A program made the position numbers and the translations under genes. Below, one piece after another: positions 44,648 through 54,780 of a stretch of DNA of 64,000 nucleotides; within the stretch, counting starts at the first letter, position 1; every line of letters starts with the position of its first letter. Origin of the DNA: an uncultured bacterium (GTDB lineage Bacteria; Myxococcota_A; Polyangia; Polyangiales; Houyiibacteriaceae); assembly GCA_938024995.1 (NCBI GenBank), contig CALJDU010000006.1:83052-147051 (forward strand), in the 5' to 3' direction. Under the pieces are notes generated by a model. That model saw only the letters and a program-made list of their open reading frames with translations. It was not told the DNA's origin and did not search any database.

Positions 44648-44650
44648 AAT

Positions 44651-44761: not shown

Positions 44762-44837
44762 CCGCTTGTCGTCTAACGGTTTAGGACGCTCGTCTGATAC
44801 ACGGGCAATGGAAGTTCGATTCTTCCCAAGCGGACCA
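44762..44837 (+). tRNA. tRNA-Ile (anticodon GAU)
   Basis: ccgcttg/caagcgg acceptor; anticodon arm ctcgt-CTGATAC-acggg; T ggaag-TTCGATT-cttcc; CCA encoded. Confidence 0.6.
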
Positions 44838-44902
44838 TGTTCTGTTCGACGGAACGAAAAACGCGCCGCCGAGGCGACGCGTTCTACGCTCTTCCGAGCC
44901 GC

Positions 44903-45955
44903 CTACCAGCGCACGAAGCGCGAGATGCGGCGCACGCGGGAGTGGCTGGAGCCATCCGAGTCGAGCGAGAGCTCGGCGAGTGTGGTGGAGTTTACGTGCG
45001 GGCCCACCGAGCTGTCGGAGACCGGGCTGTTTGCGTCGGCGCCGAGGTTGTAGGACCAGCATGCGCTGTAGTGCTGAGTCACGCTTGCGTACGCGGTCGA
45101 GCAGTTCGTGGTCGGGGAAGTGTCGTCGTCGCGGTCGAACGAGGACCAGCCCGCGTTCACCTGCGAGTTGAAGACGCCCATCGAGCCCGAGACGAACGTC
45201 GCAGAGATGCGCATTCGAACGGGATCGAACGCGCTCATGTCCGCGCGGACCGCGATTCGCTCAACGCCTCGTCGGTCTTCGAACACATCCATGAGGTCTC
45301 CTGTCGCGGCGATCTCGTAGAGCGAGCCATCGTAGAAGTTGGAGTTGATGCTGGGGCGACCGCGTCGCTCGAGGCGATTGCCGTAGGGGATGCGCCAGAA
45401 CTGAAGGGTGTTCGTTCCGAGGAGCGAGTTGTAGAGAAGCGCCCAACCACCACCGTCGAGCTCTTGCTCGCAGTACACCTCGACGACTTCCGAGCCAAGC
45501 ATCAGCCAGGTCGGACCCGATCGCGTCAAGCCTGCGTCACGCGCGGCCGCACAGCTCGCGGCGGGGTTGTCCATCGTCAATCCAGGGAGCGCGGGACCGG
45601 CTGCACCCGGTGCGCCGTCCATTCCTGGAGTTCCGGCGGCACCTGGTTCACCCGGCGCACCATCCGCTCCGTTCGTTCCGTTGATGCCGTCGGTGCCGTT
45701 CATCCCGGGCATGCCGGGGGCGCCCGATTCGCCGTTACAGATGGCGACGATCTGCTCGCCCGCTTGTATCTCGGCACCACCGTTCGCGCATCGCGGATCA
45801 CCCATGGGGATCGGCGTGACGCTCGGTGCGGGACCTGGCGTACCCATCGTGCCCATCTCGCCCATCGCGCCCATCTCTCCAGGCGGACCTTCTGTGCCTG
45901 TGCAGGCAACCAACAGTGTGAGCGCCGCGAGGGCAACCAGCTTCAAGTTGTTCAT
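44903..45955 (-). CDS. Lipoprotein with collagen-like Gly-X-Y triple-helix repeats and C-terminal fibrinogen-related (FReD) domain (ficolin-like architecture)
   Basis: Signal MNNLKLVALAALTLLVAC|TG. Two interrupted GXY runs: GPPGEMGAMGEMGTMGTPGPAPS … GESGAPGMPGMNGTDGINGTNGADGAPGEPGAAGTPGMDGAPGAAGP (about 18 GXY triplets in total), then …YCEQELDGGGWALLYN…FWRIPYG…NCSTAYASVTQHYSACWSYNLGADANSP resembling the fibrinogen C-terminal domain. Start at internal ATG 45955. Confidence 0.6.
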   Translation of the reverse strand: MNNLKLVALAALTLLVACTGTEGPPGEMGAMGEMGTMGTPGPAPSVTPIPMGDPRCANGGAEIQAGEQIVAICNGESGAPGMPGMNGTDGINGTNGADGAPGEPGAAGTPGMDGAPGAAGPALPGLTMDNPAASCAAARDAGLTRSGPTWLMLGSEVVEVYCEQELDGGGWALLYNSLLGTNTLQFWRIPYGNRLERRGRPSINSNFYDGSLYEIAATGDLMDVFEDRRGVERIAVRADMSAFDPVRMRISATFVSGSMGVFNSQVNAGWSSFDRDDDTSPTTNCSTAYASVTQHYSACWSYNLGADANSPVSDSSVGPHVNSTTLAELSLDSDGSSHSRVRRISRFVRW

Positions 45956-46039
45956 GTCTAACGATCTCCGAAAACCGGGGATCGAAGCGTCCTCCAAATA
46001 GGTCACGTTGGTTCGATTTGACCTGCTCTGTACAGATTT

Positions 46040-46111
46040 GCTCTCGATGCTCGATGGACGAGCAACCGTCTTCTAAACGGCTCGCTGCGGGTTCGACTCC
46101 TGCCGAGAGCG
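46040..46111 (+). tRNA. tRNA-Arg (anticodon UCU)
   Basis: gctctcg/cgagagc; D gctc/gagc; loop CTTCTAA; T gcggg-TTCGACT-cctgc. Confidence 0.7.
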
Positions 46112-46115
46112 CCGG

Positions 46116-46189
46116 ACCTTCGTGGCTCAAAGGAAGAGCGCGCGTTTCCTAAACGCGTGATGAGAGTTCGAGTCTCTCCGAAGGTGCCA
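46116..46189 (+). tRNA. tRNA-Arg (anticodon CCU)
   Basis: accttcg/cgaaggt; D gctc/gagc; anticodon arm cgcgt-TTCCTAA-acgcg; T gagag-TTCGAGT-ctctc; CCA encoded. Confidence 0.75.
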
Positions 46190-46262
46190 ACGATCTGGTG
46201 GCTCTACGCGCAGCGCTATCGCTTCGCTCACGGGCTTGCTTGCAAGCTCATCAAGTTCTTTA

Positions 46263-46335
46263 CGCCGGGCTCTGGGAAAGCTGGTTGGTTTCCAAATCCG
46301 ACTGCAGGCGAGGTTCAACTCCTCGACTGTGTTTT
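46263..46335 (+). pseudogene. tRNA-Trp-like pseudogene (CCA anticodon loop, degraded acceptor/D-arm)
   Basis: Near-identical to the 46467-46541 copy but with a broken acceptor 3' strand and a T·T in the anticodon stem. Confidence 0.3.
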
Positions 46336-46412
46336 TTGGAGGGTCTGTTCGGACCCTCCCTCCCAACGAACAAGTAGTTGGGAGCCTCCCTCCTACGTTC
46401 GCTTCGCTCAGT
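46333..46412. repeat. Array repeat family copy (hairpin + tail)
   Basis: ttggagggtctgttcggaccctccctcccaacgaacaagtagttgggagcctccctcctacgttcgcttcgctcag. Confidence 0.8.
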
Positions 46413-46466
46413 CGGATTCGCTTCGCTCATGGCTTGCTTGCACGCAGCCGTCAGCACCTTTTACGC

Positions 46467-46541
46467 CGGGCTCTGGGAAAGCTGGTTGGACTCCAAATCC
46501 GACTGCAGGCGAGGTTCAACTCCTCGACGGCGTGCCGCGCT
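46467..46541 (+). pseudogene. tRNA-Trp-like element (anticodon CCA), non-canonical D-arm; possible pseudogene
   Basis: Acceptor acgccgg/acggcgt (6/7 bp); anticodon arm ttgga-CTCCAAA-tccga; T cgagg-TTCAACT-cctcg; no foldable D stem. Confidence 0.3.
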
Positions 46542-46567
46542 CAGATGAGCGTTCCTTTGCAGTGATG

Positions 46568-46636
46568 AGTGGTTCTGGGGAGGGTTCATACCCCTCCCTT
46601 CGTCAGTTCGATTCTGACCGCTGCATCTGAGTTTCT
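46568..46636 (+). pseudogene. tRNA-Met-like element (anticodon CAU) with truncated D-arm
   Basis: Acceptor tgcagtg/cgctgca; 7-bp anticodon helix with loop TTCATAC; T gtcag-TTCGATT-ctgac; 5' half is 4 nt short. Confidence 0.3.
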
Positions 46637-46710
46637 TGGAGGGTCTATCCGACCCTCCCTCCCAACGAGCAAGTAGTTGGGAGCCTCCCTCTTTTGTTCG
46701 CTTCGCTCAG
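46632..46710. repeat. Array repeat family copy
   Basis: ttggagggtctatccgaccctccctcccaacgagcaagtagttgggagcctccctcttttgttcgcttcgctcag. Confidence 0.8.
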
Positions 46711-46847
46711 CGGGTTCGCTTCGCTCACGTCGTGCTCGCTGGCGTCAGCTCGCGAGCAGGAGAGCAAAAAACTGTCGGTCGTTCGTCGACCATGGCGGCA
46801 CGGCGGGCCGTCGCGTGCATCGGTGCGAAAGCAACGGTGCGCGCTTT

Positions 46848-46919
46848 GCCTTTCAAGCGTAGATGGCGACGCCCTCCGCTCGTAACGGGGAGAGCTGGGT
46901 TCAAGTCCCAGGAAAGGCT
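46848..46919 (+). tRNA. tRNA-Thr (anticodon CGU)
   Basis: gcctttc/gaaaggc; D gcgt/acgc; anticodon arm ctccg-CTCGTAA-cgggg; T ctggg-TTCAAGT-cccag. Confidence 0.7.
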
Positions 46920-46926
46920 CTGAGTA

Positions 46927-47003
46927 TTTTGGAGGGGCTGTCCGCCCCTCCCTCCCAACGAACAAGTAGTTGGGAGCCTCCCACCCATGTTCGCTTCGCT
47001 CAA
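46927..47003. repeat. Array repeat family copy (ggagggg-ctgtccg-cccctcc variant)
   Basis: Followed directly by MITE-like element Y (46990-47100). Confidence 0.8.
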
Positions 47004-47110
47004 TATTCTTTGTTCCGCGCCGCCGGCGCTGACGCCGCTCGGTCTTCGCTTCGCTCCGGACCTCGCGCCTACGCGCCTGCTCGGAACCAATATCGTTCGC
47101 TTCGCGAACT
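46985..47110. repeat. MITE-like element Y (reverse-complement copy of 21377-21470)
   Basis: ~95% identity over ~95 bp to the rc of the 21.4-kb copy; imperfect inverted termini. Confidence 0.55.
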
Positions 47111-47254
47111 CGGCGGCGTACTTCTGGAGGGGCTGCCGGCCTTCACCACCACGCGAACTCGCCGCCGTCTTTCGCGTTGCGGTTTTGCTTTGCGGTTTTG
47201 CTTTGCGGTTGCGTCGCATGTCGCCTCAAGCGTTCGTTGCTCTTGCCTCTCAAG

Positions 47255-47325
47255 CGTAGATAGCGACGCGCTTGGCTTGTAACTGAGAGAGCTGGGCGCA
47301 CGTCCCAGGAGAGGCTCTGTTTGTG
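47255..47325 (+). pseudogene. Degenerate duplicate of tRNA-Thr(CGU) (T-loop and anticodon arm mutated)
   Basis: caagcgtagatagcgacgc…agctgggcgcacgtcccagg aligns to 46851-46919, but the T-loop is cgcacgt and the anticodon arm is lost. Confidence 0.3.
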
Positions 47326-47354
47326 TTCGCGTTGCCGCTCGCGGCAACGCTTTT

Positions 47355-47425
47355 GCGGGTGTCGTCTAACGGTAAGACACCGGTCTTCCAAACCGTGAAT
47401 GAGGGTTCGATCCCCTTCTCCCGCT
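47355..47425 (+). tRNA. tRNA-Gly (anticodon UCC)
   Basis: gcgggtg…ctcccgc-T-CC; loop CTTCCAA; T gaggg-TTCGATC-ccctt; close to canonical bacterial Gly-UCC. Confidence 0.65.
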
Positions 47426-47590
47426 CCGATCGCGCCGGGCTTAGCAACTCGGCAGGTGTTCGTGACTCGTTGACTCGCTGAGTTTTTGCGTCTGCGATCA
47501 CTGGGAGCTCTGTTCCTCGCACGGGCGGCGTGCGGGCTTGTGCAGAGTCTCTCTCCTTCGCGCATCCAGCTCACGTTGCGATGCGCCCAT

Positions 47591-47667
47591 GACGCGTTGG
47601 TCTAGTTGGCAAGGACGTCTGATTCTCAATCAGAAGGTCACGGGTTCGATCCCCGTACGCGTCACCA
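47591..47667 (+). tRNA. tRNA-Glu (anticodon CUC)
   Basis: gacgcgt/acgcgtc; D gtc-tagttggcaa-gga (Glu-type D-arm); anticodon arm tctga-TTCTCAA-tcaga; CCA encoded. Confidence 0.75.
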
Positions 47668-47672
47668 AACAT

Positions 47673-47745
47673 ACTGCGTTGCGCATCTGGGATGCGGCTC
47701 GGTTGTCTCCCGAGTGAGACGGGTTCGATTCCCGTACGCAGTGCC
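47673..47745 (+). tRNA. tRNA-Asp (anticodon GUC), copy 1
   Basis: actgcgt/acgcagt; D cgca/tgcg; anticodon arm ctcgg-TTGTCTC-ccgag (U37 unusual); T acggg-TTCGATT-cccgt. Confidence 0.55.
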
Positions 47746-47771
47746 GCGTGAGAGCGCTGTTCGAGATACTT

Positions 47772-47845
47772 GCTGCGTTGTGCATCTGGGATGCAGACCC
47801 ACTGTCTATGGGTTGAGACGGGTTCAATTCCCGTACGTAGCGCCA
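47772..47845 (+). tRNA. tRNA-Asp (anticodon GUC), copy 2 (diverged paralog)
   Basis: gctgcgt/acgtagc; D tgca/tgca; anticodon arm accca-CTGTCTA-tgggt; T-loop TTCAATT; CCA encoded. Confidence 0.55.
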
Positions 47846-47873
47846 CCACGTTCGCAACACGCGAGCAGGGTCT

Positions 47874-47947
47874 ACGGCGATGGTCCAACGGAAAGATCCA
47901 TGGTTGCCAGCCACGAGATAGGGGTTCGATTCCCCTTCGCCGTACCA
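47874..47947 (+). tRNA. tRNA-Gly (anticodon GCC), odd D-arm
   Basis: acggcga/tcgccgt; anticodon arm catgg-TTGCCAG-ccacg; T agggg-TTCGATT-cccct; CCA encoded. Confidence 0.5.
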
Positions 47948-47951
47948 AACG

Positions 47952-48027
47952 TTTTGGAGGGTCAGTCGGACCCTCCCTCCCAACGGCTCTAGTTGGAAGC
48001 CACCCTCCTACGTTCGCTTCGCTCAGA
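47952..48027. repeat. Array repeat family copy
   Basis: ttggagggtcagtcggaccctccctcccaacggctctagttggaagccaccctcctacgttcgcttcgctcag. Confidence 0.8.
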
Positions 48028-48095
48028 GGATTCGCTTCGCTCATCTGCTTGCTCGCAGGGAGCGTGTCACGCGAAGCGTTCGCTGGAGGTTTCTT

Positions 48096-48182
48096 GGAAG
48101 GAGAATCGGCTAGGAGCCGGACTGGATTGCTAATCCATGTGTGCGTCTGTTGGCGCATGGGGATCGAGACCTCTTCCTTCCT
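48096..48182 (+). tRNA. tRNA-Ser-like (anticodon GCU), class II, non-canonical D-hairpin and T-loop
   Basis: Acceptor ggaagga/tccttcc perfect; 5-bp D hairpin cggct-agg-agccg; anticodon arm tgga-TTGCTAA-tcca; variable-arm hairpin tgcg/cgca; T-loop ATCGAGA lacks TΨC. Confidence 0.35.
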
Positions 48183-48187
48183 CCTTT

Positions 48188-48346
48188 TTATTGGAGGGTC
48201 TGTTCGGACCCTCCCTCCAAGTAAGTAAATGACTTGGAGCCTCCCTCCCACGTTCGCTTCGCTCTGTTTTTTGGAGGGTCAATCGGACCCTCCCTCCAAG
48301 TAAGTAAATGACTTGGAGCCTCCCTCCCACGTTCGCTTCGCTCTGA
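48188..48346. repeat. Two tandem copies of array repeat family
   Basis: 48188-48266 and 48268-48346; hairpin loops tgttcg vs aatcg. Confidence 0.8.
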
Positions 48347-48417
48347 CTCGCTCCGCTCGTCTTTGCGTGCTCGCGTGCATGGCAACGTTCGTTCTGGCCT
48401 CGCGAGAGGCAACACTT

Positions 48418-48490
48418 GGTGGTCTCGCACAGGTGTGTCCGCGCGGATGTGACCCGCGTCGGCAACGGGTTCAAGTCCCGCCGATCACCC
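48418..48490 (+). tRNA. tRNA-His-like (anticodon GUG), copy 1; lacks canonical G-1
   Basis: ggtggtc/gatcacc-C; anticodon arm cgcgg-ATGTGAC-ccgcg perfect; T (a)cggg-TTCAAGT-cccg; short D-loop. Confidence 0.4.
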
Positions 48491-48536
48491 CACTGTTCAC
48501 AGTTCACAACTGCTCTCCGAATTTCGGTGAGCACCC

Positions 48537-48607
48537 GGGCCTGTATTTCAACGGGAGAATGCTTGTTTCGCACGCAGGCGATGAGGGTTCGATTCCCTCC
48601 TGGTCCA
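48537..48607 (+). tRNA. tRNA-Ala (anticodon CGC) with G3·U70
   Basis: gggcctg/ctggtcc gives G3·U70 (the Ala identity pair) and U6·U67; D gttc/gaat-like; loop TTCGCAC; T gaggg-TTCGATT-ccctc. Confidence 0.6.
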
Positions 48608-48650
48608 CTGTCGCTTCGTCGCTCGCGTCGAAGCGAAGTTCGTTTCACTT

Positions 48651-48724
48651 GGTGGTCGCGCACAGGTGTGTCCGCGCGGATGTGACCCGCGTCGGCGTTC
48701 GGGTTCAAGTCCCGCCGATCACCC
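48651..48724 (+). tRNA. tRNA-His-like (anticodon GUG), copy 2
   Basis: Same structure as 48418-48490 with point differences; no CCA. Confidence 0.35.
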
Positions 48725-48863
48725 CGGGCTCTTCGGAGTCAACCTCAGGCTGAGGGCTCAGTAGGGAGCTTCCCGATTTGGACTCGGGCGGTGCAGGTGC
48801 AACTCCTGTCAGCTTGACCGGTGCGCCGCGTCTTCGTTCGACGAGATGCGGTGCGCTTGATCC

Positions 48864-48936
48864 TGGGCATGTAGTTCAACGGGAGAATGTCTGTCTTGCA
48901 CACAGCGGATGAGGGTTCGATCCCCTCCTTGTCCAC
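48864..48936 (+). tRNA. tRNA-Ala (anticodon UGC) with G3·U70
   Basis: gggcatg/cttgtcc; compensatory C5-G68 to A5-U68 change versus the CGC paralog; loop CTTGCAC; T gaggg-TTCGATC-ccctc. Confidence 0.6.
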
Positions 48937-49129
48937 CGGTTTTCTAGGGTCTTTTTTCGAAGACCCTCTCCGCTTCGCGGATTCACCCAAAACGTTCGCT
49001 TCGCTCTCTGCGCGCCCGCGTTAGCCAAAAGTCGTCCGCTCTGGTCGCAGCGCTCCCGGCGCTCCAGACGTTTTGGCGTCGCGGAGCTTGCTGTCTCAAT
49101 CTGTTGGGTCGTCTTCGAAAGACCCGTTT

Positions 49130-49200
49130 GCCCTTGCAGCACGATGGTCGTGCACTCCTCCGGTACAGGAGCGGAACGGGTTCGATTCCCGTCGAGGGCT
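49130..49200 (+). tRNA. tRNA-Thr (anticodon GGU)
   Basis: gcccttg/cgagggc; D gcac/gtgc; anticodon arm ctcct-CCGGTAC-aggag; T acggg-TTCGATT-cccgt. Confidence 0.65.
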
Positions 49201-49205
49201 CCGTG

Positions 49206-49284
49206 TTTTTTGGAGGGGCTGTCCGCCCCTCCCTCCAAACGAGCAAGTAGTTTGGAGCCTCCCTCCCATGTTCGCTTCGCTCAG
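49206..49284. repeat. Array repeat family copy (start of 240-bp tandem unit)
   Basis: ttggaggggctgtccgcccctccctccaaacgagcaagtagtttggagcctccctcccatgttcgcttcgctcag. Confidence 0.8.
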
Positions 49285-49366
49285 TATCGTTCGCTTCGCG
49301 AACTCGGATCCGTCTTTCGGGTTGCCTGGTTCGCCGGGCTGCAGGGGCAGAGCGTTCTCTGCTCTC

Positions 49367-49438
49367 GCGGGGTTTGTAGTCTGGGACTGCGCCACTCTTA
49401 CAAAGTGATTCAGCAGGGTTCGATTCCCTGACTCCGCA
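49367..49438 (+). tRNA. tRNA-Val (anticodon UAC), copy 1
   Basis: gcggggt/actccgc; D gtag/ctgc; anticodon arm ccact-CTTACAA-agtga; T caggg-TTCGATT-ccctg. Confidence 0.7.
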
Positions 49439-49602
49439 CCGCTGTGCTTTTGGAGGGGCTGTCCGCCCCTCCCTCCAAACGAGCAAGTAGTTTGGAGCCT
49501 CCCTCCCGTGTTCGCTCAGTATCGTTCGCTTCGCGAACTCGGCTCCGTCTTTCGGGTTGCCTGGTTCGCTGGGCTGCAGGGGGCAGAGCGTTCTTCGACT
49601 TC

Positions 49603-49674
49603 GCGGGGTTTGTAGTCTGGGACTGCGCCACTCTTACAAAGTGATTCAGCAGGGTTCGATTCCCTGACCCCGCA
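49603..49674 (+). tRNA. tRNA-Val (anticodon UAC), copy 2 (tandem duplicate)
   Basis: Identical to copy 1 except acceptor accccgc (perfect pairing); part of a ~240-bp tandem repeat. Confidence 0.7.
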
Positions 49675-49863
49675 CCGCTGTGTTTTTGGAGGGGCTGTCC
49701 GCCCTCCAAACGACTCTAGTTTGGAGCCTCCCTCCCATGTTCGCTTCGCTCAGTATCGTTCGCTTCGCGAACTCGGCTCCGTCTTTCGGGTTACCGGGTT
49801 CGACGGCCGCGCGGGAGCAGAGCGCTCCTCGACTTCGTCCTTCGTCGCTCTCTTCGTCTTCTT

Positions 49864-49938
49864 CTGGGCCTGTAGCTAAGCGGGAAAGCAGCCGGCTTTT
49901 AACCGGCAGATCGTGAGTTCAAATCTCACCGGGCCTAC
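49864..49938 (+). tRNA. tRNA-Lys (anticodon UUU)
   Basis: gggcctg/cgggcct; anticodon arm gccgg-CTTTTAA-ccggc; T gtgag-TTCAAAT-ctcac; CCA encoded. Confidence 0.7.
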
Positions 49939-49944
49939 CAATAA

Positions 49945-50020
49945 ATACTCTCGAAGCTCAACTGGATGAGCGCTCGGCTACGGACTGAGAGGGTGCAGGT
50001 TCGACTCCTGCCGAGAGTGC
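49945..50020 (+). tRNA. tRNA-Arg (anticodon ACG)
   Basis: actctcg/cgagagt; D gctc/gagc; anticodon arm ctcgg-CTACGGA-ctgag; T gcagg-TTCGACT-cctgc; CCA encoded. Confidence 0.8.
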
Positions 50021-50093
50021 CATGTCTCTTTACCCAAGTAAGCGGAGCAAGCAAGAAGGCGAGTCACGCGAAGACGTCAGCCCAGTTCGCGAA

Positions 50094-50180
50094 GCGAACG
50101 ATACTGAGCGAAGCGAACATGGGAGGGAGGCTCCAAACCATTTACTTGTTTGGAGGGAGGGGCGGACAGCCCCTCCAGAA
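50094..50180. repeat. Array repeat family copy, inverted orientation
   Basis: gagcgaagcgaacatgggagggaggctccaaacc…ggagggaggggcggacagcccctccag. Confidence 0.75.
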
Positions 50181-50186
50181 AGCATT

Positions 50187-50259
50187 GTGCTGGAGTACAG
50201 GCGCGACCGTCTCGGCTGCAACCCGATATGTGTGAGTTCAATTCTCACCCAGCACTCCA
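50187..50259 (+). tRNA. tRNA-Cys (anticodon GCA)
   Basis: gtgctgg/ccagcac-T-CCA; loop CTGCAAC; T gtgag-TTCAATT-ctcac; compact D region. Confidence 0.55.
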
Positions 50260-50260
50260 A

Positions 50261-50334
50261 GCTCCCATAGTGAAACGGAATCACGCTGGTCTCCGAAACC
50301 GGTAGTCCAAGTTCGAGCCTTGGTGGGAGTGCCA
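50261..50334 (+). tRNA. tRNA-Arg (anticodon CCG)
   Basis: gctccca/tgggagt; D gtga/tcac; anticodon arm ctggt-CTCCGAA-accgg; T ccaag-TTCGAGC-cttgg; CCA encoded. Confidence 0.7.
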
Positions 50335-50351
50335 ATCACGCAGTGAATTAA

Positions 50352-50421
50352 CGCTATGCGCCGCGGCCGGCAGACGCCTCTCATACGGGCGAGCTCGAAG
50401 GTTCAACTCCCTCCATAGCGA
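50352..50421 (+). tRNA. tRNA-Met (anticodon CAU), weak D-arm
   Basis: cgctatg/catagcg perfect; anticodon arm cgcct-CTCATAC-gggcg; T-loop TTCAACT. Confidence 0.45.
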
Positions 50422-50453
50422 CTGGGTCTCCGGACCTTAACATCCGAGTGTAG

Positions 50454-50530
50454 CTCAGCCTGGAAGAGCACACCGTTCGGGACGGTGAGGTCGCAGGTTC
50501 GGATCCTGTCACTCGGACCATTCTATCCGC
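50454..50530 (+). tRNA. tRNA-Pro (anticodon CGG)
   Basis: Fully canonical: ccgagtg / gctc-agcctggaa-gagc / caccg-TTCGGGA-cggtg / gcagg-TTCGGAT-cctgt / cactcgg-A-CCA. Confidence 0.85.
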
Positions 50531-50565
50531 GTCGCAAACATCACTGGCGTCGCGAGCACGTCGAT

Positions 50566-50660
50566 GAGCGAAGCGAATCCGCTGAGCGAAGCGAACATGG
50601 GAGGGAGGCTCCCAACTACTTGCTCGTTGGGAGGGAGGGGCGGACAGCCCCTCCAAAAAG
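50566..50660. repeat. Array repeat family copy, inverted orientation
   Basis: gagcgaagcgaatccgctgagcgaagcgaacatgggagggaggctcccaactacttgctcgttgggagggaggggcggacagcccctccaa. Confidence 0.75.
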
Positions 50661-50665
50661 CACAG

Positions 50666-50741
50666 CAGGGTGAAGTCTTGTCGGGAAGACGCTCGTCTGG
50701 GAGGCGAGAGGTTGCTGGTTCAACTCCAGCCACCCTGACCA
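50666..50741 (+). tRNA. tRNA-Pro (anticodon GGG)
   Basis: cagggtg/caccctg; anticodon arm ctcgt-CTGGGAG-gcgag; T gctgg-TTCAACT-ccagc; CCA encoded. Confidence 0.8.
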
Positions 50742-50746
50742 ATTTG

Positions 50747-50820
50747 GTTTCCATAGTGAAAAGGAATCACACGAGCTTGCGGAGCTCGCATTCTAGGTTC
50801 GAGTCCTAGTGGAAACGCCA
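50747..50820 (+). tRNA. tRNA-Arg (anticodon GCG)
   Basis: gtttcca/tggaaac; D gtga/tcac (same D-arm as Arg-CCG); anticodon arm cgagc-TTGCGGA-gctcg; T ctagg-TTCGAGT-cctag; CCA encoded. Confidence 0.7.
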
Positions 50821-50881
50821 ATCGAGCCTGCTCGAGTCGACGCACGCTTGGAGAGAGCCGGCGAGCATGAGAGCAAGCTGC

Positions 50882-51050
50882 TCGCTGATGCGGACTAGGG
50901 ACGCGCAAAGCGCGAACCGAAGGGAGCATCAATCACGCGGCGCGATGGGGGTGAATGCCGAAGGCAGAGGGGGGAACGCCCTGCAAGCGGTCGTGGTGAT
51001 GCGGACAAGGTACGCGCAAAGCGCGAACCGAAGGGAGCATCGCGCACTGC
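50882..51050. repeat. Two direct ~50-bp repeats (gatgcggac.agg.acgcgcaaagcgcgaaccgaagggagcatc) separated by ~70 bp
   Basis: 50882-50931 and 50999-51049 differ at about 3 positions. Confidence 0.6.
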
Positions 51051-51124
51051 CGCGCGCAGCAGAGCGAAGCGAACGGCGGGAAGCGCGAAGCGCTGGGGTC
51101 TGCGACTCAGACCCCATAGATTTA

Positions 51125-51205
51125 GCCTAGGTGGCGGAACGGTTTACGCAGCGGTCTCAGACTCCGTGCCCTCAAGGGATGCAGGTTCGACTCCTGTCCT
51201 AGGTA
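51125..51205 (+). tRNA. tRNA-Leu (anticodon CAG), class II
   Basis: gcctagg/cctaggt; 3-bp D stem gcg/cgc; loop CTCAGAC; variable-arm hairpin ccc-tcaa-ggg; T gcagg-TTCGACT-cctgt; A73. Confidence 0.6.
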
Positions 51206-51337
51206 CCGCGCTCAGCGATGAGCGTTACACGATCGAAATGGTTCGGTCGTGGTCAGTCGCGCTCGGATCCTCTCCGAGCCGATGCTGTTCGCGTTTGCGA
51301 GCGGCGCCATTTGGCGCGCGCGTGACCACGTGCGCGC

Positions 51338-51880
51338 ATGAAACGCGCAAACCGCGCGAGGAGGTGGCCCATGCGCACGCTCGTACTGGACCAAGGTTAC
51401 CAACCGCACCGCATCGTCTCCTGGGAGAAGGCGGTCACCATGCTCTACGTCGGAAAGGCCGACCTCGTGGAGCACTACGACGACGAGATCCGCTCGACCA
51501 GCATGACGATGTTCATGCCGGCGGTCGTTCGGCTCACCCGCGGGCTCAAGTACCGCAAGAAGTCGATCAAGTTCTCGCGGCTCAACGTCATGATGCGTGA
51601 CGGATTCTCCTGCCAGTACTGCGGCACCGAGATGAAGATGCGCGACCTCACGTACGACCACGTCCTGCCGCGCGCGCGCGGAGGGAAGACCACGTGGACG
51701 AACATCGTGACCGCGTGCCGTGACTGCAACGAGCAGAAGGCCGACCGCACTCCGAAGGAGGCAGGGATGCCCCTTCTGAAGAAGCCCATCAAGCCGCTCT
51801 GGCTGCCGACAGGATCGTTTCACGTAGACGACCTCCGGCTCCCCGAGACCTGGCGGAACTGGGTGTCGTGGGCTGCCTAA
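51338..51880 (+). CDS. HNH endonuclease
   Basis: HNH motif YDHVLPRARGGKTTWTNIVTACRDCNEQK (His-Asn-His plus a Cys zinc finger); sits inside the tRNA array. Confidence 0.75.
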   Translation: MKRANRARRWPMRTLVLDQGYQPHRIVSWEKAVTMLYVGKADLVEHYDDEIRSTSMTMFMPAVVRLTRGLKYRKKSIKFSRLNVMMRDGFSCQYCGTEMKMRDLTYDHVLPRARGGKTTWTNIVTACRDCNEQKADRTPKEAGMPLLKKPIKPLWLPTGSFHVDDLRLPETWRNWVSWAA

Positions 51881-51928
51881 AGCAGCACTTGTTCTCGCTC
51901 GCTTGAGCTTGTCTCGAGCGAGCATCCA

Positions 51929-52002
51929 CACCACTGTGGCCCAACTGGAAGAGGCGTCTGACTAAGGATCAGAAGGTTGTGAGTTCGAATCTCACCAGTG
52001 GT
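51929..52002 (+). tRNA. Class-I-length tRNA with Leu anticodon AAG and A73 (unusual)
   Basis: accactg/cagtggt; D gcc(c)/ggc; perfect anticodon arm tctga-CTAAGGA-tcaga; 5-nt variable loop; T gtgag-TTCGAAT-ctcac. Confidence 0.5.
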
Positions 52003-52006
52003 ACCG

Positions 52007-52079
52007 AACCATCGTGGCCCAACGGAAGAGGCACCTGTTTCAAACTCAGGGTGTTGTGAGTTCGACTCTCACCGATGGT
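52007..52079 (+). tRNA. Class-I-length tRNA with Leu anticodon CAA and A73 (paralog of previous)
   Basis: accatcg/cgatggt; same D-arm; anticodon arm cctgt-TTCAAAC-tcagg (U·U closing pair); T gtgag-TTCGACT-ctcac. Confidence 0.45.
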
Positions 52080-52087
52080 ACCGATTA

Positions 52088-52400
52088 CTTGGGGGGATTT
52101 TTCGATCCCCCTCTCTCCCGTTGGTCGACTCACCCCAAACGTTCGCTCCGCTCTGGCTGCGCGCGAAGTGCGCGCCGCTCCTCGACCGGTCGCTTTGCTC
52201 CCCATCTCGTTGCGTCACCACGTCGCTTGCTCTTGTTTCCTAAGGGGATTTTTCGAGACCCTTCTCGGCTTCGCCGATTCATCCCAAACGTTCGCTTCGC
52301 TCTGCTGCGCACACAAATGCGCGACGCTCTCTTCGGTCAGCGCTTTGCGCTTCCCTTGTCGTGTCACCAATTGTGTTTGCTTCATGCTTGCTCGCTCGTC
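52088..52400. repeat. Two ~150-bp direct repeats of hairpin + conserved tail (ggggattttcgatcccc… / ggggatttttcgagaccc… …ccaaacgttcgct(c/t)cgctctg(g)ctgcgc)
   Basis: 52088-52240 and 52245-52400 share ~70% identity, including the palindromic head and acgttcgcttcgctc tail. Confidence 0.6.
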
Positions 52401-52515
52401 TCTGCACCTTTGGTGCGTTCGACTTGCTTTGCGGCTCCGAAACTACGCGTCGCATTCCGCGGCGCTTCGCGTTCGTGTTCTTTCTGTTGCCGCGGGTGGA
52501 CGCGAACGTGAATCT

Positions 52516-52599
52516 CGAAGGTAATTTGATCTGGAGATCAACGCCGCCTTGAAAGCGGAGGGAGCCGAGAGGCTTGGAGTTCAATTCTTCTACCTTCGG
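52516..52599 (+). tRNA. tRNA-Ser (anticodon UGA), class II with unusual 5-bp D-hairpin
   Basis: cgaaggt/accttcg perfect; D hairpin tgatc-tgga-gatca; anticodon arm ccgc-CTTGAAA-gcgg; variable hairpin gcc-gaga-ggc; T-loop TTCAATT. Confidence 0.45.
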
Positions 52600-52604
52600 C
52601 AAGT

Positions 52605-52688
52605 GGAAGAGGATCTGATCCGGGATCAGGGCCGAGTGGAAATCGGTGCGCGCCTTCTCGGCGTGGGGTTCGACTCCTCTCTCTTCCT
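52605..52688 (+). tRNA. tRNA-Ser (anticodon GGA), class II with unusual D-hairpin
   Basis: ggaagag/ctcttcc perfect; D hairpin ctgat-ccggg-atcag; anticodon arm ccga-GTGGAAA-tcgg; 6-bp variable hairpin cgcgcc/ggcgtg; T gggg-TTCGACT-cctc. Confidence 0.45.
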
Positions 52689-52859
52689 CCCTTCCCAACA
52701 ACAACCGTCGCGAGCCCTCGCGCGGCAGCCACCGCGGAGCGAGCGTTCAAACACCAAAGCGAAGCGACGTGTTTGGACTGTCGCGGAGCGGGCGAACGAA
52801 TGTGAGCGTGGGTGAATGCGCGAAGCGCAGAGGGGCGCAATCGCCCCTTCAAACAACAT

Positions 52860-52947
52860 CGAAGACAAACTGATCTGGGATCAGGCCTGCCTCGAAAACA
52901 GTGCGCGCCTTGATCGGCGTGAGGTTCGATTCCTCTGTCTTCGGCCA
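52860..52947 (+). tRNA. tRNA-Ser (anticodon CGA), class II with unusual D-hairpin
   Basis: cgaagac/gtcttcg-G-CCA; D hairpin ctgatc-tggg-gatcag; anticodon stem ctg(c)/(a)cag with compensatory C-G to U-A change versus the GGA paralog; loop CTCGAAA; T gagg-TTCGATT-cctc. Confidence 0.45.
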
Positions 52948-53060
52948 CTGCCCGCGGAGCTCGGCAACGAGACCTGCAAGAGCTCCTCCCGTCACTCGCG
53001 GTTCACCGGCACCTCATCAGGTCCGGTCGCTTCGCACCCACGCGCTCATCTGCGCTCTTT

Positions 53061-53137
53061 GTCCTTGTCGTCTAATGGTTCAGGATTTTCCGGCTTTCAA
53101 CCGGTGGATGCGGGTTCGAATCCCGCCGGGGACGCCA
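53061..53137 (+). tRNA. tRNA-Glu (anticodon UUC)
   Basis: gtccttg…cggggac-G-CCA; D gtct-aatggttc-agga; loop CTTTCAA; T gcggg-TTCGAAT-cccgc; closely matches the E. coli Glu pattern. Confidence 0.8.
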
Positions 53138-53188
53138 TTCTCATCGCGCCATCGCGCATCACTTTTCACCGCTCACCTTGAGGTCGTC

Positions 53189-54589
53189 ATGGAATCGCTC
53201 GTCCACGCCGCGCCGACTGAGGTGCGCAAACGAAATGAACACACGTCCCCAGAGTCGCGCGTCGCGCTTTACGCGGCGATCGGCAGCCCGCGTTCCATTC
53301 TCAGAGCGCGACCCACAACGGAAGAGCGACGGATCGAAGACGCGGAAGTGGTCTCGGCCGCCGCGCGTGTGTCCCCCAAGTTCCTCGCTGCCCACGCGCT
53401 CGCCTCGCGCGCGCTCGGGGAGTCTTCCCGTGCGCCCGCGCTCTTGTGCGCGCTCCTCTCTCATCGGGATCCGGCTCTCCTCGCGGAGGTCTTCCCATGC
53501 GTCATCAATACGCCCGCGCTCGTGCGTCGCTTCGTCGGCGTTGTGCGCTCGGGCGTGAGCGGTCGTCGCTCGCTCGGGAGCGCGCCGAAACGCTTGATCG
53601 CGCGTTGGCTGCGATCGCTGTCAGACGACGCGGTGCTGACGAACGGCGCGAAGCTGCGCGACGTGATCCGCTTGTCTCATCCGCGACCTCGGTCCCGTGC
53701 CCGTGCGGCGCTGTATCGGCTTCTGCTCTCACGTCCATACGATGCCCATCGCTTGCCGAGATTGGCGAGCATGTGGGTCGCGTCCCAGAGCGGTGGCGAT
53801 ATCGACGAGCTCCCGCTCTCGCTCTGTCGCGTTAAGAAGGTCGGGATCCGCGCTCCGAGCGAGTATCTCCCTGCAGTCGCGCGAGCGTCTGCGCATGAGC
53901 TCGTGACGTCGCTCGATTGGCTGCGCGGGTTCGCCGACGACGCGCTCGTGGCCGCGGTCGCGACGCGACTTCGTGAGGCACGGGCCGAAGATGTGCGTCC
54001 CTACGCGCTGCTCCGTCTCCTTCGCGCGACGAGCTCACCCCGCGAGTGGGTGGACGCTGGGTTTTCACTTCTCGATCGCGCGAGTGAACGATCGAGCGAG
54101 GTTCGCGGGACGCTCGTCGTGGACACGAGCGCTTCGATGACCGCGCCCCTCTTCGCTACGCGAGGTGAGCGTCGAGATCCGATCGATGGACTGGATGTCG
54201 CGGCGCTCCTCATGACGACCCTCCGGGGACCTCATTTGCACGTGGTCGACTTCGCGGGTCGCCCGCTCTCGTCCGAGGGCGGCGTCCAAGATGTTCGCGG
54301 TCGTCTGGGGAATCTCCTCAGCTCGCCGCGTTCTGTCTCAAGCGCGATCGAGCAGCGGAGCGGAGAAATGATCGTGGTCACCGACGACGTCGGCTCGGAG
54401 CGCGCCTTGGCGCGTCTTGGTCAACGTCATGGCGCCGCGCTCAGCGTCGTCGACCTGTGCCCGACGAGCGTGGGTCAAGTGGCCGTCCGCTCCACCCGTT
54501 TCGCGGGTTTCAACGACATCTCGCTTCAGGTCCTGATGGACCGCGCCCAGCAAAAGACCTCTGTCCAGGAGGCCCGCTGGGCGTCTTAA
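53189..54589 (+). CDS. rsr: Ro60/TROVE-domain protein with C-terminal vWA domain (Rsr, Ro sixty-related RNA-binding protein)
   Basis: Recalled TROVE-like motifs: GRRSLGSAPKRLIARWL resembles GWGRGLR.AVA.WY, and NGAKLRDVIRLSHPRP resembles GWSHRDLLRLAHPKP. C-terminal MIDAS motif in LVVDTSASMTAP. Start ATG 53189 (an alternative TTG at 53177); the longer ORF 52901.. overlaps the tRNAs. Confidence 0.65.
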   Translation: MESLVHAAPTEVRKRNEHTSPESRVALYAAIGSPRSILRARPTTEERRIEDAEVVSAAARVSPKFLAAHALASRALGESSRAPALLCALLSHRDPALLAEVFPCVINTPALVRRFVGVVRSGVSGRRSLGSAPKRLIARWLRSLSDDAVLTNGAKLRDVIRLSHPRPRSRARAALYRLLLSRPYDAHRLPRLASMWVASQSGGDIDELPLSLCRVKKVGIRAPSEYLPAVARASAHELVTSLDWLRGFADDALVAAVATRLREARAEDVRPYALLRLLRATSSPREWVDAGFSLLDRASERSSEVRGTLVVDTSASMTAPLFATRGERRDPIDGLDVAALLMTTLRGPHLHVVDFAGRPLSSEGGVQDVRGRLGNLLSSPRSVSSAIEQRSGEMIVVTDDVGSERALARLGQRHGAALSVVDLCPTSVGQVAVRSTRFAGFNDISLQVLMDRAQQKTSVQEARWAS

Positions 54590-54706
54590 ACACCTCACGT
54601 CTCTTTTCCGTCGCGCCGCCCGCGATGGCTTGGATCCGCGTGAGTCACTTGAGAGCACTCCTGGATGGCGTTGAGATCGCGCCCGTGCTAATCCCGTCCC
54701 CGATTT

Positions 54707-54780
54707 TCCGGAGTCGTCTAATGGCAGGACAGCGGACTTTGAATCCGTGAATGGTGGTTCGAATCCACCCTCTGGAACCA
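54707..54780 (+). tRNA. tRNA-Gln (anticodon UUG)
   Basis: U1-A72 acceptor tccggag/ctctgga-A-CCA; anticodon arm gcgga-CTTTGAA-tccgt; T ggtgg-TTCGAAT-ccacc. Confidence 0.8.

What the first reader, a model, noticed from the sequence alone, without database searches (positions are those of the whole stretch)
52516..52947. Family of class II tRNA-Ser genes (anticodons UGA, GGA, CGA; plus a GCU-like copy at 48096) with a non-canonical 5-6 bp D-hairpin
Perfect 7-bp acceptor stems, long variable-arm hairpins and Ser anticodons fit tRNA-Ser. The D region, however, is replaced by a tight palindromic hairpin (tgatc-tgga-gatca, ctgat-ccggg-atcag, ctgatc-tggg-gatcag). This differs from the canonical 3-bp stem with a large loop. 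The GGA and CGA paralogs show a compensatory C-G to U-A change in the anticodon stem. Together the four genes cover all six Ser codons. SerRS recognises the variable arm rather than the anticodon, so these could be functional but structurally novel tRNA-Ser species.
Basis: seen in the sequence. Interest (0 to 1): 0.6.

Follow-up and report, generated by a model that had tools for sequence, protein, structure and literature searches.

The report
Sec-shaped serine tRNAs in tRNA array
Four serine tRNA genes in a roughly 40-gene tRNA array on a myxobacterial chromosome do have an unusual shape (8-bp acceptor stem, 4-bp T stem, long D stem), but this '8/4' or allo-tRNA shape was described in 2017, so they are new members of a known oddity rather than a new kind of tRNA.

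Summary
The tight D hairpin is real. The acceptor stem, however, is 8 bp, not 7, and the T stem is 4 bp. This is the '8/4' architecture with a tRNA-Sec-like D arm. Covariation across 33 relatives decides it: the 8/4-specific pair forms in 31 of 33 sequences, the rival 7/5 pair in 3 of 33, and all six D-stem pairs covary. The fold matches the (8/4) tRNA-Ser / allo-tRNA class of Mukai et al. 2017 (NAR), so it is not structurally novel. The genes sit in a roughly 40-tRNA, single-strand array (43596-54780) with an embedded HNH endonuclease, about 5 kb from dnaA, in a Polyangia (Sandaracinus-like) genome. Close relatives have no array at that site, so it fits the horizontally spread 'L-array' type. 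Homologous arrays with 8/4 Ser sets occur in other Myxococcota, and some Polyangia carry Ser-only 8/4 clusters at a conserved chromosomal locus. Most likely these are functional serine isoacceptors charged by SerRS. Verdict: new member of a known kind, moderate interest.

The parts
52516..52599 (+). (8/4) tRNA-Ser(UGA). Acceptor 52516-52523 pairs with 52591-52598. D arm is 6 bp with loop UGGA. Anticodon loop CUUGAAA. V arm is 5 bp. T arm is GGAG-UUCAAUU-CUUC. Discriminator is G at 52599. CCA is not encoded (CAA follows).
   Evidence: Rfam tRNA-Sec 53.3 bits, above its gathering score. ARAGORN -ps90 calls it. MFE and centroid are both the 8/4 cloverleaf, z -2.1. R1 score 77.6 bits.
52605..52688 (+). 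(8/4) tRNA-Ser(GGA). The 8-bp acceptor ends in a G8.U pair. D arm is CUGAUC-CGG-GAUCAG. Anticodon loop GUGGAAA. T arm is GGGG-UUCGACU-CCUC. Discriminator is U at 52688.
   Evidence: ARAGORN default call. Rfam tRNA-Sec 38.9 bits. The explicit 8/4 fold is -35.2 kcal/mol against -33.0 for 7/5. R1 score 83.5 bits.
52860..52947 (+). (8/4) tRNA-Ser(CGA), with discriminator G at 52944 and an encoded CCA at 52945-52947. The anticodon stem has a C31.A39 mismatch and one bulged U.
   Evidence: ARAGORN default call. Rfam tRNA-Sec 42.8 bits. The MFE is the 8/4 cloverleaf, frequency 0.68 in the ensemble, z -2.8. R1 score 86.6 bits.
48096..48182 (+). (8/4) tRNA-Ser(GCU). D arm is UCGGCU-AGG-AGCCGG. Anticodon loop UUGCUAA. 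The T loop is the variant AUCGAGA (A54 instead of U54). Discriminator is U at 48182.
   Evidence: ARAGORN -ps90 calls it. The MFE is an 8/4 cloverleaf, z -3.5. The same AUCGAGA T loop occurs in the GCU genes of independent arrays, L094:5776-5860 and L088:3614-3699. Rfam gives no hit.
43596..54780 (+). tRNA array (L-array / tRNA array unit). About 40 tRNA genes, all on the + strand, covering all 20 amino acids, at about 3.6 genes per kb. It contains repeated intergenic hairpin modules and decayed duplicates.
   Evidence: ARAGORN finds 34 genes at default and 41 at -ps90. Homologous arrays with the same partial gene order are L088, L094, L008 and L014.
51338..51880 (+). HNH homing-type endonuclease gene embedded in the array, between Leu(CAG) and Leu(AAG).
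   Evidence: PHROG 16726, 1e-36. Pfam HNH_5 and HNH. Orthologs at 41-61% identity sit at the same place in arrays L094, L088, L008 and L014, and at 35-39% in Acidobacteriota and Pirellulales arrays.
60074..61504 (+). dnaA, the chromosomal replication initiator. It serves as a context marker showing that the array is on a bacterial chromosome.
   Evidence: Pfam Bac_DnaA, 1e-66. Nearest homologs are Myxococcota, Polyangiales and Sandaracinus. The dnaA loci of relatives have no array.

Best explanation
The four genes encode serine tRNA isoacceptors of the (8/4) tRNA-Ser / allo-tRNA structural class. Each has an 8-bp acceptor stem stacked on a 4-bp T stem. That still gives the 12-bp acceptor branch that EF-Tu measures. 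Each also has two linker nucleotides, a tRNA-Sec-like 6-bp D stem with a 3-4-nt loop, an anticodon stem extended by an outer pair across a bulge or mismatch, and a long variable arm that abuts the T stem.

Inferred mechanism: SerRS charges them through the long variable arm, G73/U73 and the conserved G2:C71 and A3:U70 pairs, without reading the anticodon. EF-Tu then delivers them, and they decode UCN (UGA, GGA, CGA) and AGY (GCU).

They belong to a roughly 40-gene, HNH-endonuclease-associated tRNA array of the horizontally transferred L-array kind, inserted about 5 kb from dnaA in a Polyangia genome. They are therefore most likely a supernumerary, array-borne Ser set rather than the ancestral housekeeping genes of this organism.

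Shown here: the architecture, its conservation by covariation, the array context, and the absence of the array at the same site in relatives. Inferred: serylation, use in translation, and supernumerary status.
For: Architecture. RNAfold gives the 8/4 cloverleaf as MFE for three of the four genes. The explicit 8/4 fold is 2.2-2.9 kcal/mol better than 7/5 in all four.

Covariation on the unfitted MAFFT alignment A2 (12 sequences): 91.7% of cells are paired, 25 of 29 pairs change on both sides, and the score is 0.638 against 0.232 in shuffles (0 of 500) and 0.09-0.16 when partners are slid.

Covariation on 33 sequences (A3): the 8/4-specific pair 8:66 forms in 31 of 33 (GC 17, AU 8, GU 4, UA 2). 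The 7/5-specific pair 49:65 forms in 3 of 33. The D stem is 98% paired and all 6 pairs covary. The T stem is 100% paired. The outer anticodon-stem pair across a bulge forms in 27 of 33.

Controls. Canonical Ser tRNAs in homologous arrays (L089, L001, L061) parse as clean 7/5.

Identity-type features. G2:C71 is present in 33 of 33 and A3:U70 in 32 of 33. U33, A37 and a G or U discriminator are conserved. T is at position -1 in 14 of 14.

Match to the published class. Mukai et al. 2017 define (8/4) tRNA-Ser by these features, found them in tRNA gene clusters, and showed that 8/4 and 9/3 allo-tRNAs insert Ser in E. coli.

Array context. Relatives' dnaA loci lack the array. The L-array concept and its HNH association come from PMC8421152 and PMC5966550.
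Against: There are no expression, processing or aminoacylation data for these genes. Several irregularities could reduce activity: a C31.A39 mismatch and bulge in CGA, a G.A mismatch in UGA, G32 in GGA, A54 in the GCU T loop, C1:G72 starts in UGA and CGA, and CCA encoded in only one gene. The array also contains decayed duplicates, so some genes may be drifting. Supernumerary status is not shown, because only 64 kb of the genome was available and no canonical tRNA-Ser could be looked for elsewhere. Some Polyangia carry the same 8/4 Ser set as a conserved chromosomal cluster, which argues that in those lineages it may be the main set. Alignment A3 was fitted to the 8/4 model, and the sequences are related, so the shuffle statistics overstate significance. 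The 8/4 versus 7/5 comparison uses identical columns and is not affected by this.
Confidence: 0.8

Rival explanations
1. The genes are otherwise canonical 7/5 class II tRNA-Ser genes in which only the D arm has been replaced by a tight hairpin, making a new structural type.
For: ARAGORN draws them in a 7/5 frame. The first seven acceptor pairs are perfect.
Against: In the 7/5 frame the 49:65 pair is a U.U mismatch in all four window genes and is unpaired in 30 of 33 family members. Nucleotide 8 pairs with the same 3' base in 31 of 33, with AU, GC, GU and UA variants. The 7/5 fold is 2.2-2.9 kcal/mol worse. The combination is already described in the literature.
Confidence: 0.03
2. The genes are selenocysteine tRNAs, or Sec-pathway tRNAs with sense anticodons, as the Rfam tRNA-Sec hit suggests.
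For: RF01852 is the best Rfam family for three of the genes, and the UGA gene exceeds its gathering score. The 6-bp D stem, small D loop, 8-bp acceptor and long V arm are tRNA-Sec hallmarks.
Against: The anticodons are UGA, GGA, CGA and GCU, a complete Ser set, and not UCA. The acceptor branch is 12 bp (8/4), not the 13 bp (8/5 or 9/4) that marks tRNA-Sec for SelB and excludes EF-Tu (definition in PMC5389517). The family occurs as four-isoacceptor sets in many arrays.
Confidence: 0.02
3. The genes are non-translating relics or regulatory tRNA-like RNAs. They would be decaying passengers of a selfish HNH-driven array, or substrates or decoys for toxins, as was proposed for inactive allo-tRNA(UAU) species.
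For: The array holds decayed duplicates and repeat modules. Several genes carry stem mismatches. L-arrays studied elsewhere are transcribed at very low levels under standard conditions (PMC8421152). Some allo-tRNAs were inactive in E. coli.
Against: There is strong compensatory conservation of all five helices across diverged arrays. Anticodon-loop rules are conserved (U33, A37, and A36-A37-A38 in the UCN decoders). Complete Ser isoacceptor sets are retained. In Anabaena, 23 of 26 array tRNAs are aminoacylated once the array is induced.
Confidence: 0.1
4. The identity is the same (8/4 tRNA-Ser) but the role differs. These would be the organism's only, housekeeping tRNA-Ser genes, with Polyangia having replaced canonical tRNA-Ser by the 8/4 form.
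For: Ser-only clusters of 3-4 8/4 isoacceptors lie directly after a conserved ThiF-family gene in three organisms with 70-77% ThiF identity, on contigs of 544 and 808 kb, with no HNH gene. No canonical tRNA-Ser is seen in the window.
Against: In this window the genes lie in an HNH-bearing array that is absent from the same locus in relatives, which is the signature of supernumerary L-arrays. One related array (L089) carries a canonical 7/5 Ser next to an 8/4 Ser. Only 64 kb of this genome could be examined.
Confidence: 0.15

Closest known systems
(8/4) tRNA-Ser, a subgroup of allo-tRNAs (Mukai et al. 2017, Nucleic Acids Res 45:2776; PMC5389517)
   Same: 8-bp acceptor plus 4-bp T stem, giving a 12-bp branch. 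tRNA-Sec-like long D stem with a small loop. Long V arm. G73 or U73. Ser anticodons. Occurrence inside tRNA gene clusters. The same scaffold carries non-Ser anticodons (GAC, GAU) in related loci L095 and L096.
   Different: Mukai reported them in phages, 'proteobacteria' and rumen Clostridia, together with an (8/4) tRNA-His that lacks G-1. Here the host is a Polyangia chromosome, and no phage match was found. The His genes keep G-1:C73 with a 7-bp acceptor. All four Ser isoacceptors are 8/4. The D loop is mostly 3 nt (YGG) rather than a tetraloop.
Bacterial tRNA-Sec (Rfam RF01852)
   Same: 8-bp acceptor, 6-bp D stem with a very small loop, two-nucleotide linker, extended anticodon stem, long V arm. 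It is the best-scoring Rfam family for three of the genes.
   Different: tRNA-Sec has a 13-bp branch (8/5) and a UCA anticodon, and it uses SelA and SelB. These genes have a 12-bp branch (8/4) and Ser anticodons.
Canonical bacterial class II tRNA-Ser (7/5)
   Same: Long variable arm, G73, G2:C71, A3:U70, the same anticodon set, and A36-A37-A38 in the UCN decoders.
   Different: Canonical tRNA-Ser has a 7-bp acceptor, a 5-bp T stem, U8, and a 3-4-bp D stem with a large loop. Canonical examples in homologous arrays (L001, L061, L089) score on RF00005 and parse as 7/5.
L-arrays / tRNA array units (Tran et al. 2015, PMC4758250; Morgado & Vicente 2018, PMC5966550; Santamaria-Gomez et al. 2021, PMC8421152)
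   Same: More than 20 co-oriented tRNA genes at more than 2 per kb, all 20 isotypes, an embedded HNH homing endonuclease, patchy distribution, and absence from the same locus in relatives.
   Different: The array papers read here do not report arrays in Myxococcota, and they do not mention non-canonical tRNA architectures such as 8/4 Ser, compact D arms or short-arm Leu.

Membership tests
(8/4) tRNA-Ser / allo-tRNA (Mukai 2017) | 8-bp acceptor stem | tested here: met
   All four window genes have 8 of 8 pairs. Pair 8:66 forms in 31 of 33 relatives with changes on both sides.
(8/4) tRNA-Ser / allo-tRNA (Mukai 2017) | 4-bp T stem, so the acceptor branch totals 12 bp | tested here: met
   The four T-stem pairs are 100% paired. 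The would-be fifth pair, 49:65, is unpaired in 30 of 33.
(8/4) tRNA-Ser / allo-tRNA (Mukai 2017) | tRNA-Sec-like D arm: long stem and tetraloop | tested here: met
   The 6-bp D stem is 98% paired and all pairs covary. The loop is 3-4 nt (UGGA, CGG, UGG, AGG), so it is mostly a triloop, a minor deviation.
(8/4) tRNA-Ser / allo-tRNA (Mukai 2017) | Long variable arm and G73 or U73 discriminator (SerRS identity) | tested here: met
   The 5-bp or longer V stem is 94.5% paired. Discriminators in the window are G, U, G, U. Across the family they are G in 25 and U in 8.
(8/4) tRNA-Ser / allo-tRNA (Mukai 2017) | Serine anticodon, which separates (8/4) tRNA-Ser from the other allo-tRNAs | tested here: met
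   The anticodons are UGA, GGA, CGA and GCU.
(8/4) tRNA-Ser / allo-tRNA (Mukai 2017) | Serylated by SerRS and active in translation | not testable with these tools
   This is inferred only from identity elements and from Mukai's E. coli assays on other allo-tRNAs.
(8/4) tRNA-Ser / allo-tRNA (Mukai 2017) | Co-occurrence with an (8/4) tRNA-His lacking G-1 and having A73 (reported association, not a defining feature) | tested here: not met
   The His genes at 48419 and 48652 have an encoded G-1, C73, a 7-bp acceptor, and a 4-bp T stem plus a 49:65 mismatch.
Bacterial tRNA-Sec | UCA anticodon reading UGA | tested here: not met
   The anticodons are UGA, GGA, CGA and GCU.
Bacterial tRNA-Sec | 13-bp acceptor branch (8/5) | tested here: not met
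   The branch is 8+4 = 12 bp.
Bacterial tRNA-Sec | Rfam RF01852 gathering score of 47 bits | tested here: inconclusive
   UGA scores 53.3 and passes. CGA (42.8) and GGA (38.9) fail. GCU gives no hit.
Canonical 7/5 class II tRNA-Ser | 7-bp acceptor, 5-bp T stem, and a 3-4-bp D stem with a large loop | tested here: not met
   There is no RF00005 match for any of the four genes, while canonical Ser genes in arrays L001 and L044 do match.
L-array / tRNA array unit | At least 20 tRNA genes at 2 or more per kb, co-oriented | tested here: met
   About 40 genes in 11.2 kb, all on the + strand. The definition is from PMC4758250.
L-array / tRNA array unit | Patchy distribution and horizontal transfer; absent from close relatives | tested here: met
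   dnaA loci of relatives with 70-73% DnaA identity lack any array. Homologous HNH-bearing arrays occur in three phyla.
L-array / tRNA array unit | Contributes supernumerary tRNAs on top of a housekeeping set | not testable with these tools
   Only 64 kb of the genome is available.

The most novel reading that the evidence does not exclude
Myxococcota carry a lineage of HNH-driven tRNA arrays that encode a near-complete, structurally divergent tRNA set: 8/4 Ser, compact Sec-like D arms on several 7/5 tRNAs, class-I-length Leu tRNAs, and T-loop variants. This set would act as a back-up or nuclease-evading tRNA pool. In some Polyangia the 8/4 Ser set would have been domesticated at a fixed chromosomal locus after a ThiF-family gene and may have displaced canonical tRNA-Ser altogether. 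That would be the first bacterial clade whose standard serine tRNAs are non-7/5.
Probability: 0.15. Interest if true: 0.65.

Novelty: new member of a known kind. Interest (0 to 1): 0.35.

Why it matters
The finding extends the little-studied (8/4) tRNA-Ser / allo-tRNA class to Myxococcota chromosomes. It also supplies 33 or more natural sequence variants with clear covariation, which is useful for engineering allo-tRNA scaffolds such as those used for EF-Tu-driven selenocysteine insertion. It raises a testable question: do some Polyangia use 8/4 tRNAs as their normal serine tRNAs? For annotation, it shows that ARAGORN forces these genes into a wrong 7/5 frame, and that Rfam labels one of them tRNA-Sec and misses another.

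Tried and rejected
Searches that found nothing:
- Megablast of the array against phage genomes: no match.
- Viral-contig scan with the Ser pattern: 0 hits. No direct phage link could be shown.
- First exact-protein look-up, FAD oxidase: not on record.
- Mukai's supplementary sequences are not held, so no direct sequence comparison with their (8/4) tRNA-Ser was possible.
- Literature searches for allo-tRNA together with Myxococcota or tRNA arrays found nothing.

Searches that were noisy or uninformative:
- The genome contigs pattern scan returned mostly irrelevant canonical tRNAs, chiefly Gln, whose acceptor stem contains TCCGGGATC. Only three Myxococcota loci (four matches) were true relatives.
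- The promoter and terminator scan of the array was uninformative: 0 promoters, and terminator-like sites were not enriched.
- The in-array ORFs of 374, 466, 165 and 265 aa have no Pfam or PHROG match and no homolog in the related arrays. They are probably spurious or lineage-specific.

Ideas considered and rejected:
- RuvC at 56182-56676 was considered as a phage marker, but it is a full-length housekeeping-type match.
- A 9/4 reading of UGA and CGA (U-1 pairing with G73) was considered. Rfam aligns them that way. I rejected it because 8/4 gives G73 plus the encoded CCA in the CGA gene, and T at -1 is universal in the family, including genes where it cannot pair.
- (8/4) tRNA-His was tested and not found.

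Full report
**What is at the coordinates.**
The window is 64% GC. It carries a dense, single-strand tRNA array from 43596 to 54780. ARAGORN finds 34 genes at default settings and 41 at a 90% threshold, one of which (53515-53603) is probably false. Together they cover all 20 amino acids.

Inside the flagged interval lie three Ser-anticodon genes, and a fourth lies at 48096:

| Gene | Coordinates | Discriminator | Note |
|---|---|---|---|
| tRNA-Ser(UGA) | 52516-52599 | G | CCA not encoded |
| tRNA-Ser(GGA) | 52605-52688 | U | |
| tRNA-Ser(CGA) | 52860-52944 | G | CCA encoded to 52947 |
| tRNA-Ser(GCU) | 48096-48182 | U | variant T loop AUCGAGA |

Rfam does not match any of them to the generic tRNA model. 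It matches UGA, CGA and GGA to tRNA-Sec instead (53.3, 42.8 and 38.9 bits; the gathering score is 47) and misses GCU. A pattern made of the D hairpin plus the T loop occurs twice in the window and never in 100 shuffles.

Unconstrained folding gives the same cloverleaf for each gene:
- an 8-bp acceptor stem
- two linker nucleotides
- a 6-bp D stem with a 3-4-nt loop
- an anticodon arm
- a long variable arm that abuts the T stem
- a T stem of only 4 bp

ARAGORN forces a 7/5 frame, and every copy then shows a U.U mismatch at 49:65. In the 8/4 frame the same 3' base pairs with nucleotide 8. The explicit 8/4 fold is 2.2-2.9 kcal/mol better than 7/5 in all four genes. It is both MFE and centroid for UGA and CGA, and GCU's MFE has the same 8/4 topology (z-scores -2.1, -2.8 and -3.5).

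**Comparative test.**
A pattern scan of GTDB genomes gave true relatives only in Myxococcota MAGs: L014, L027 and L041. L008 came in through an unrelated tRNA but also holds family members. A metagenome scan added L088-L097.

On an unfitted MAFFT alignment of 12 genes (A2), the 8/4 structure has 91.7% of cells paired. 25 of 29 pairs change on both sides. The covariation score is 0.638, against 0.232 in shuffles (0 of 500) and 0.09-0.16 when partners are slid.

A covariance model built from A2 (R1) finds exactly four strong hits in the window (70-87 bits; the next best are the Val genes at 32-35 bits). Across the loci it finds 33 family members (A3). On A3:

| Test | Result |
|---|---|
| 8/4-specific pair (nt 8 with first 3' acceptor base) | forms in 31 of 33 (GC 17, AU 8, GU 4, UA 2) |
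| 7/5-specific pair (49:65) | forms in 3 of 33 |
| D stem (6 pairs) | 98% paired, all covary |
| T stem (4 pairs) | 100% paired |
| Outer anticodon-stem pair across a 1-nt bulge | forms in 27 of 33 |

As a control, Ser tRNAs in homologous arrays from Acidobacteriota (L001), Pirellulales (L061) and one mixed array (L089) parse as clean 7/5 with a normal D arm, and the L001 and L044 Ser genes score on RF00005.

Two caveats apply. A3 is fitted to the model, and the sequences are related. The 8/4 versus 7/5 contrast uses the same columns, and the result also holds on A2.

**What it is.**
These features are the published definition of (8/4) tRNA-Ser. Mukai et al. 2017 place it within the allo-tRNAs: a 12-bp acceptor branch split 8/4, a D stem-loop resembling that of tRNA-Sec, a long V arm and G73 or U73. 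They found such genes in tRNA gene clusters, and they showed that 8/4 and 9/3 allo-tRNAs insert serine in E. coli (PMC5389517; review PMC7609411).

The family here also includes classic allo-tRNAs with non-Ser anticodons, GAC and GAU, in L095 and L096.

It is not tRNA-Sec. The anticodons form a complete Ser set, and the branch is 12 bp, not 13.

Features consistent with working decoders are conserved:
- U33 and A37
- A36-A37-A38 in the UCN readers
- G2:C71 in 33 of 33 and A3:U70 in 32 of 33. From my own recollection these are SerRS identity positions in E. coli; I did not test this here.
- T at position -1 in 14 of 14

The odd AUCGAGA T loop of the GCU gene recurs in the GCU genes of two independent arrays. 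It is therefore a conserved variant, not decay.

**Genomic context.**
Flanking genes are ordinary chromosomal genes. dnaA lies at 60074-61504. Its nearest homologs (69-73% identity) are from Myxococcota, Polyangiales and Sandaracinus MAGs, and the window's own DnaA lies on a 289-kb contig. The dnaA neighbourhoods of three relatives, one on a 9.07-Mb contig, contain no array and no R1 hit. The array is therefore an insertion, not ancestral synteny.

An HNH endonuclease gene (51338-51880) is embedded in the array. Orthologs sit at the same position in L094, L088, L008 and L014 (41-61% identity). More distant ones (35-39%) sit in 17-31-gene arrays of Acidobacteriota and Pirellulales.

This fits the 'L-array' / 'tRNA array unit' concept: long, horizontally spread arrays that add supernumerary tRNAs, with HNH homing endonucleases as their most common companion gene. 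The Anabaena example is silent until translation is stressed (PMC8421152, PMC5966550, PMC4758250). No phage match was found.

**A second context.**
In L027 (Polyangiaceae, 544-kb contig), L097 and L101 (808-kb contig), three or four 8/4 Ser isoacceptors form a Ser-only cluster directly after a ThiF-family gene. The ThiF orthologs are 70-77% identical, and no HNH gene is present. More distant ThiF loci lack the cluster. This leaves open that some Polyangia use 8/4 tRNAs as their regular serine tRNAs. It cannot be decided without whole genomes.

**Mechanism.**
- Shown: the secondary structure, its selective maintenance, and the genomic setting.
- Inferred from the literature on allo-tRNA and tRNA-Sec: SerRS recognises the V arm and discriminator independently of the anticodon. 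The 12-bp branch allows EF-Tu binding. The long D stem with a small loop replaces the usual 8-14 / 15-48 core contacts, as in tRNA-Sec. Cryo-EM of a 9/3 allo-tRNA shows that such scaffolds occupy the A, P and E sites but are sensitive to variable-arm rigidity (PMC9561287).
- Speculative: arrays may keep structurally divergent tRNAs because these escape tRNA-targeting nucleases or serve as a stress-induced reserve.

**Verdict.**
The 'structurally novel' interpretation is wrong. These genes are new members of a known kind. The moderately interesting additions are the Myxococcota host range, the link to HNH-bearing L-arrays, and the conserved chromosomal Ser-only clusters.

Noticed in passing
window 47673-47745, 47772-47845 (Asp); 49367-49440, 49603-49676 (Val); 49130-49202 (Thr GGU); 46040-46113 (Arg UCU): Several non-Ser tRNAs in the array also have a compact 6-7-bp D stem with a 3-nt UGG-type loop, while keeping a 7-bp acceptor and 5-bp T stem. 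The two Val genes score higher on Rfam tRNA-Sec than on the generic tRNA model.
   Followed up: partly
window 51930-52005 (Leu AAG), 52008-52082 (Leu CAA); also L014 1444-1810, L008 2229-2472, L094 4443-4679, L061 1433-1757: These Leu-anticodon tRNAs are only 74-78 nt long, with a short 5-nt variable region and A73. That makes them class-I-length leucine tRNAs, which is unusual for bacteria. Only Leu(CAG) 51125-51207 has a long arm. In array L088 the Leu genes are the normal 88-90 nt.
   Followed up: partly
window 48419-48492 and 48652-48725: Two tRNA-His(GUG) genes are missed by default ARAGORN. Each has an encoded G-1 opposite C73, a compact D arm, and a 4-bp T stem with a 49:65 mismatch. 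They differ from Mukai's (8/4) tRNA-His, which lacks G-1 and has A73.
   Followed up: partly
window 43654-49800 (about 12 copies, e.g. 46927-46960, 47952-47985, 48189-48222, 49208-49241); inverted copies at 50104-50184 and 50582-50662: A repeated intergenic module lies between tRNA genes. It consists of a hairpin, TTTTGGAGGG-N-CCCTCCCTCC, followed by TTGGGAGCCTCCCTCC..GTTCGCTTCGCTCA. Its function is unknown; it could be a processing signal, a terminator, a promoter, or a miniature mobile repeat.
   Followed up: partly
window 47243-47342 and 46259-46332: These are decayed or duplicated tRNA copies. One is a 77%-identical copy of tRNA-Thr(CGU) with a destroyed T loop. The other is a 95%-identical copy of the Trp gene with a changed anticodon region. 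The array has undergone recent local duplications.
   Followed up: no
window 51338-51880; L094 4723-5226, L088 2754-3257, L008 1640-2116, L014 1929-2435, L001 4107-4628, L005, L044, L074, L061 2889-3431: One HNH endonuclease family is conserved inside large tRNA arrays of Myxococcota, Acidobacteriota (Terracidiphilus and relatives) and Pirellulales. In the Myxococcota arrays it sits at the same position, between the Leu block and the Pro/Ser block.
   Followed up: partly
L027 2059-3254, L097 12951-13487, L101 4001-5270: A conserved chromosomal locus runs VWA ... ThiF-family gene, then 3-4 tRNA-Ser genes of the 8/4 type (CGA, UGA, GGA, GCU), with no HNH gene and no large array. It may be the housekeeping Ser set of those Polyangia.
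   Followed up: partly
L027 3286-3347, L014 2964-3026, L041 5891-5952 (-), L101 4829-4901, L102 5329-5400, L104 5828-5895: A small family of tRNA-like elements lies next to the Ser clusters. They share a conserved 5' CACACGCAAG, a stub acceptor stem of only 3-5 bp, normal D and T arms, and varying anticodons (GCA, GAU, UCU, UGA, GGA). None is present in the window.
   Followed up: no
L014 2524-2665 (also 539-670, 673-801, 1601-1733): These tRNA genes carry an insertion of about 58 nt. In the 8/4 Ser(CGA) gene it sits inside the T loop and folds as its own hairpins. It could be an intron-like or mobile insertion.
   Followed up: no
L095 3205-3293 and 3516-3605; L096 1765-1853 and 2229-2315: The same 8/4 scaffold with a long V arm carries Val (GAC) and Ile (GAU) anticodons. 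These are classic allo-tRNAs that would put Ser at non-Ser codons if they are charged by SerRS.
   Followed up: no
window 38678-39979: This is a D12-class N6-adenine DNA methyltransferase-like ORF. The D stems of most 8/4 Ser genes contain two GATC sites (GATC-YGG-GATC). This is probably coincidence.
   Followed up: no
window 52515, 52604, 52859, 48095 and the equivalent positions in relatives: T is at position -1 in 14 of 14 family members examined. From recollection, this is consistent with a preferred RNase P cleavage context.
   Followed up: no
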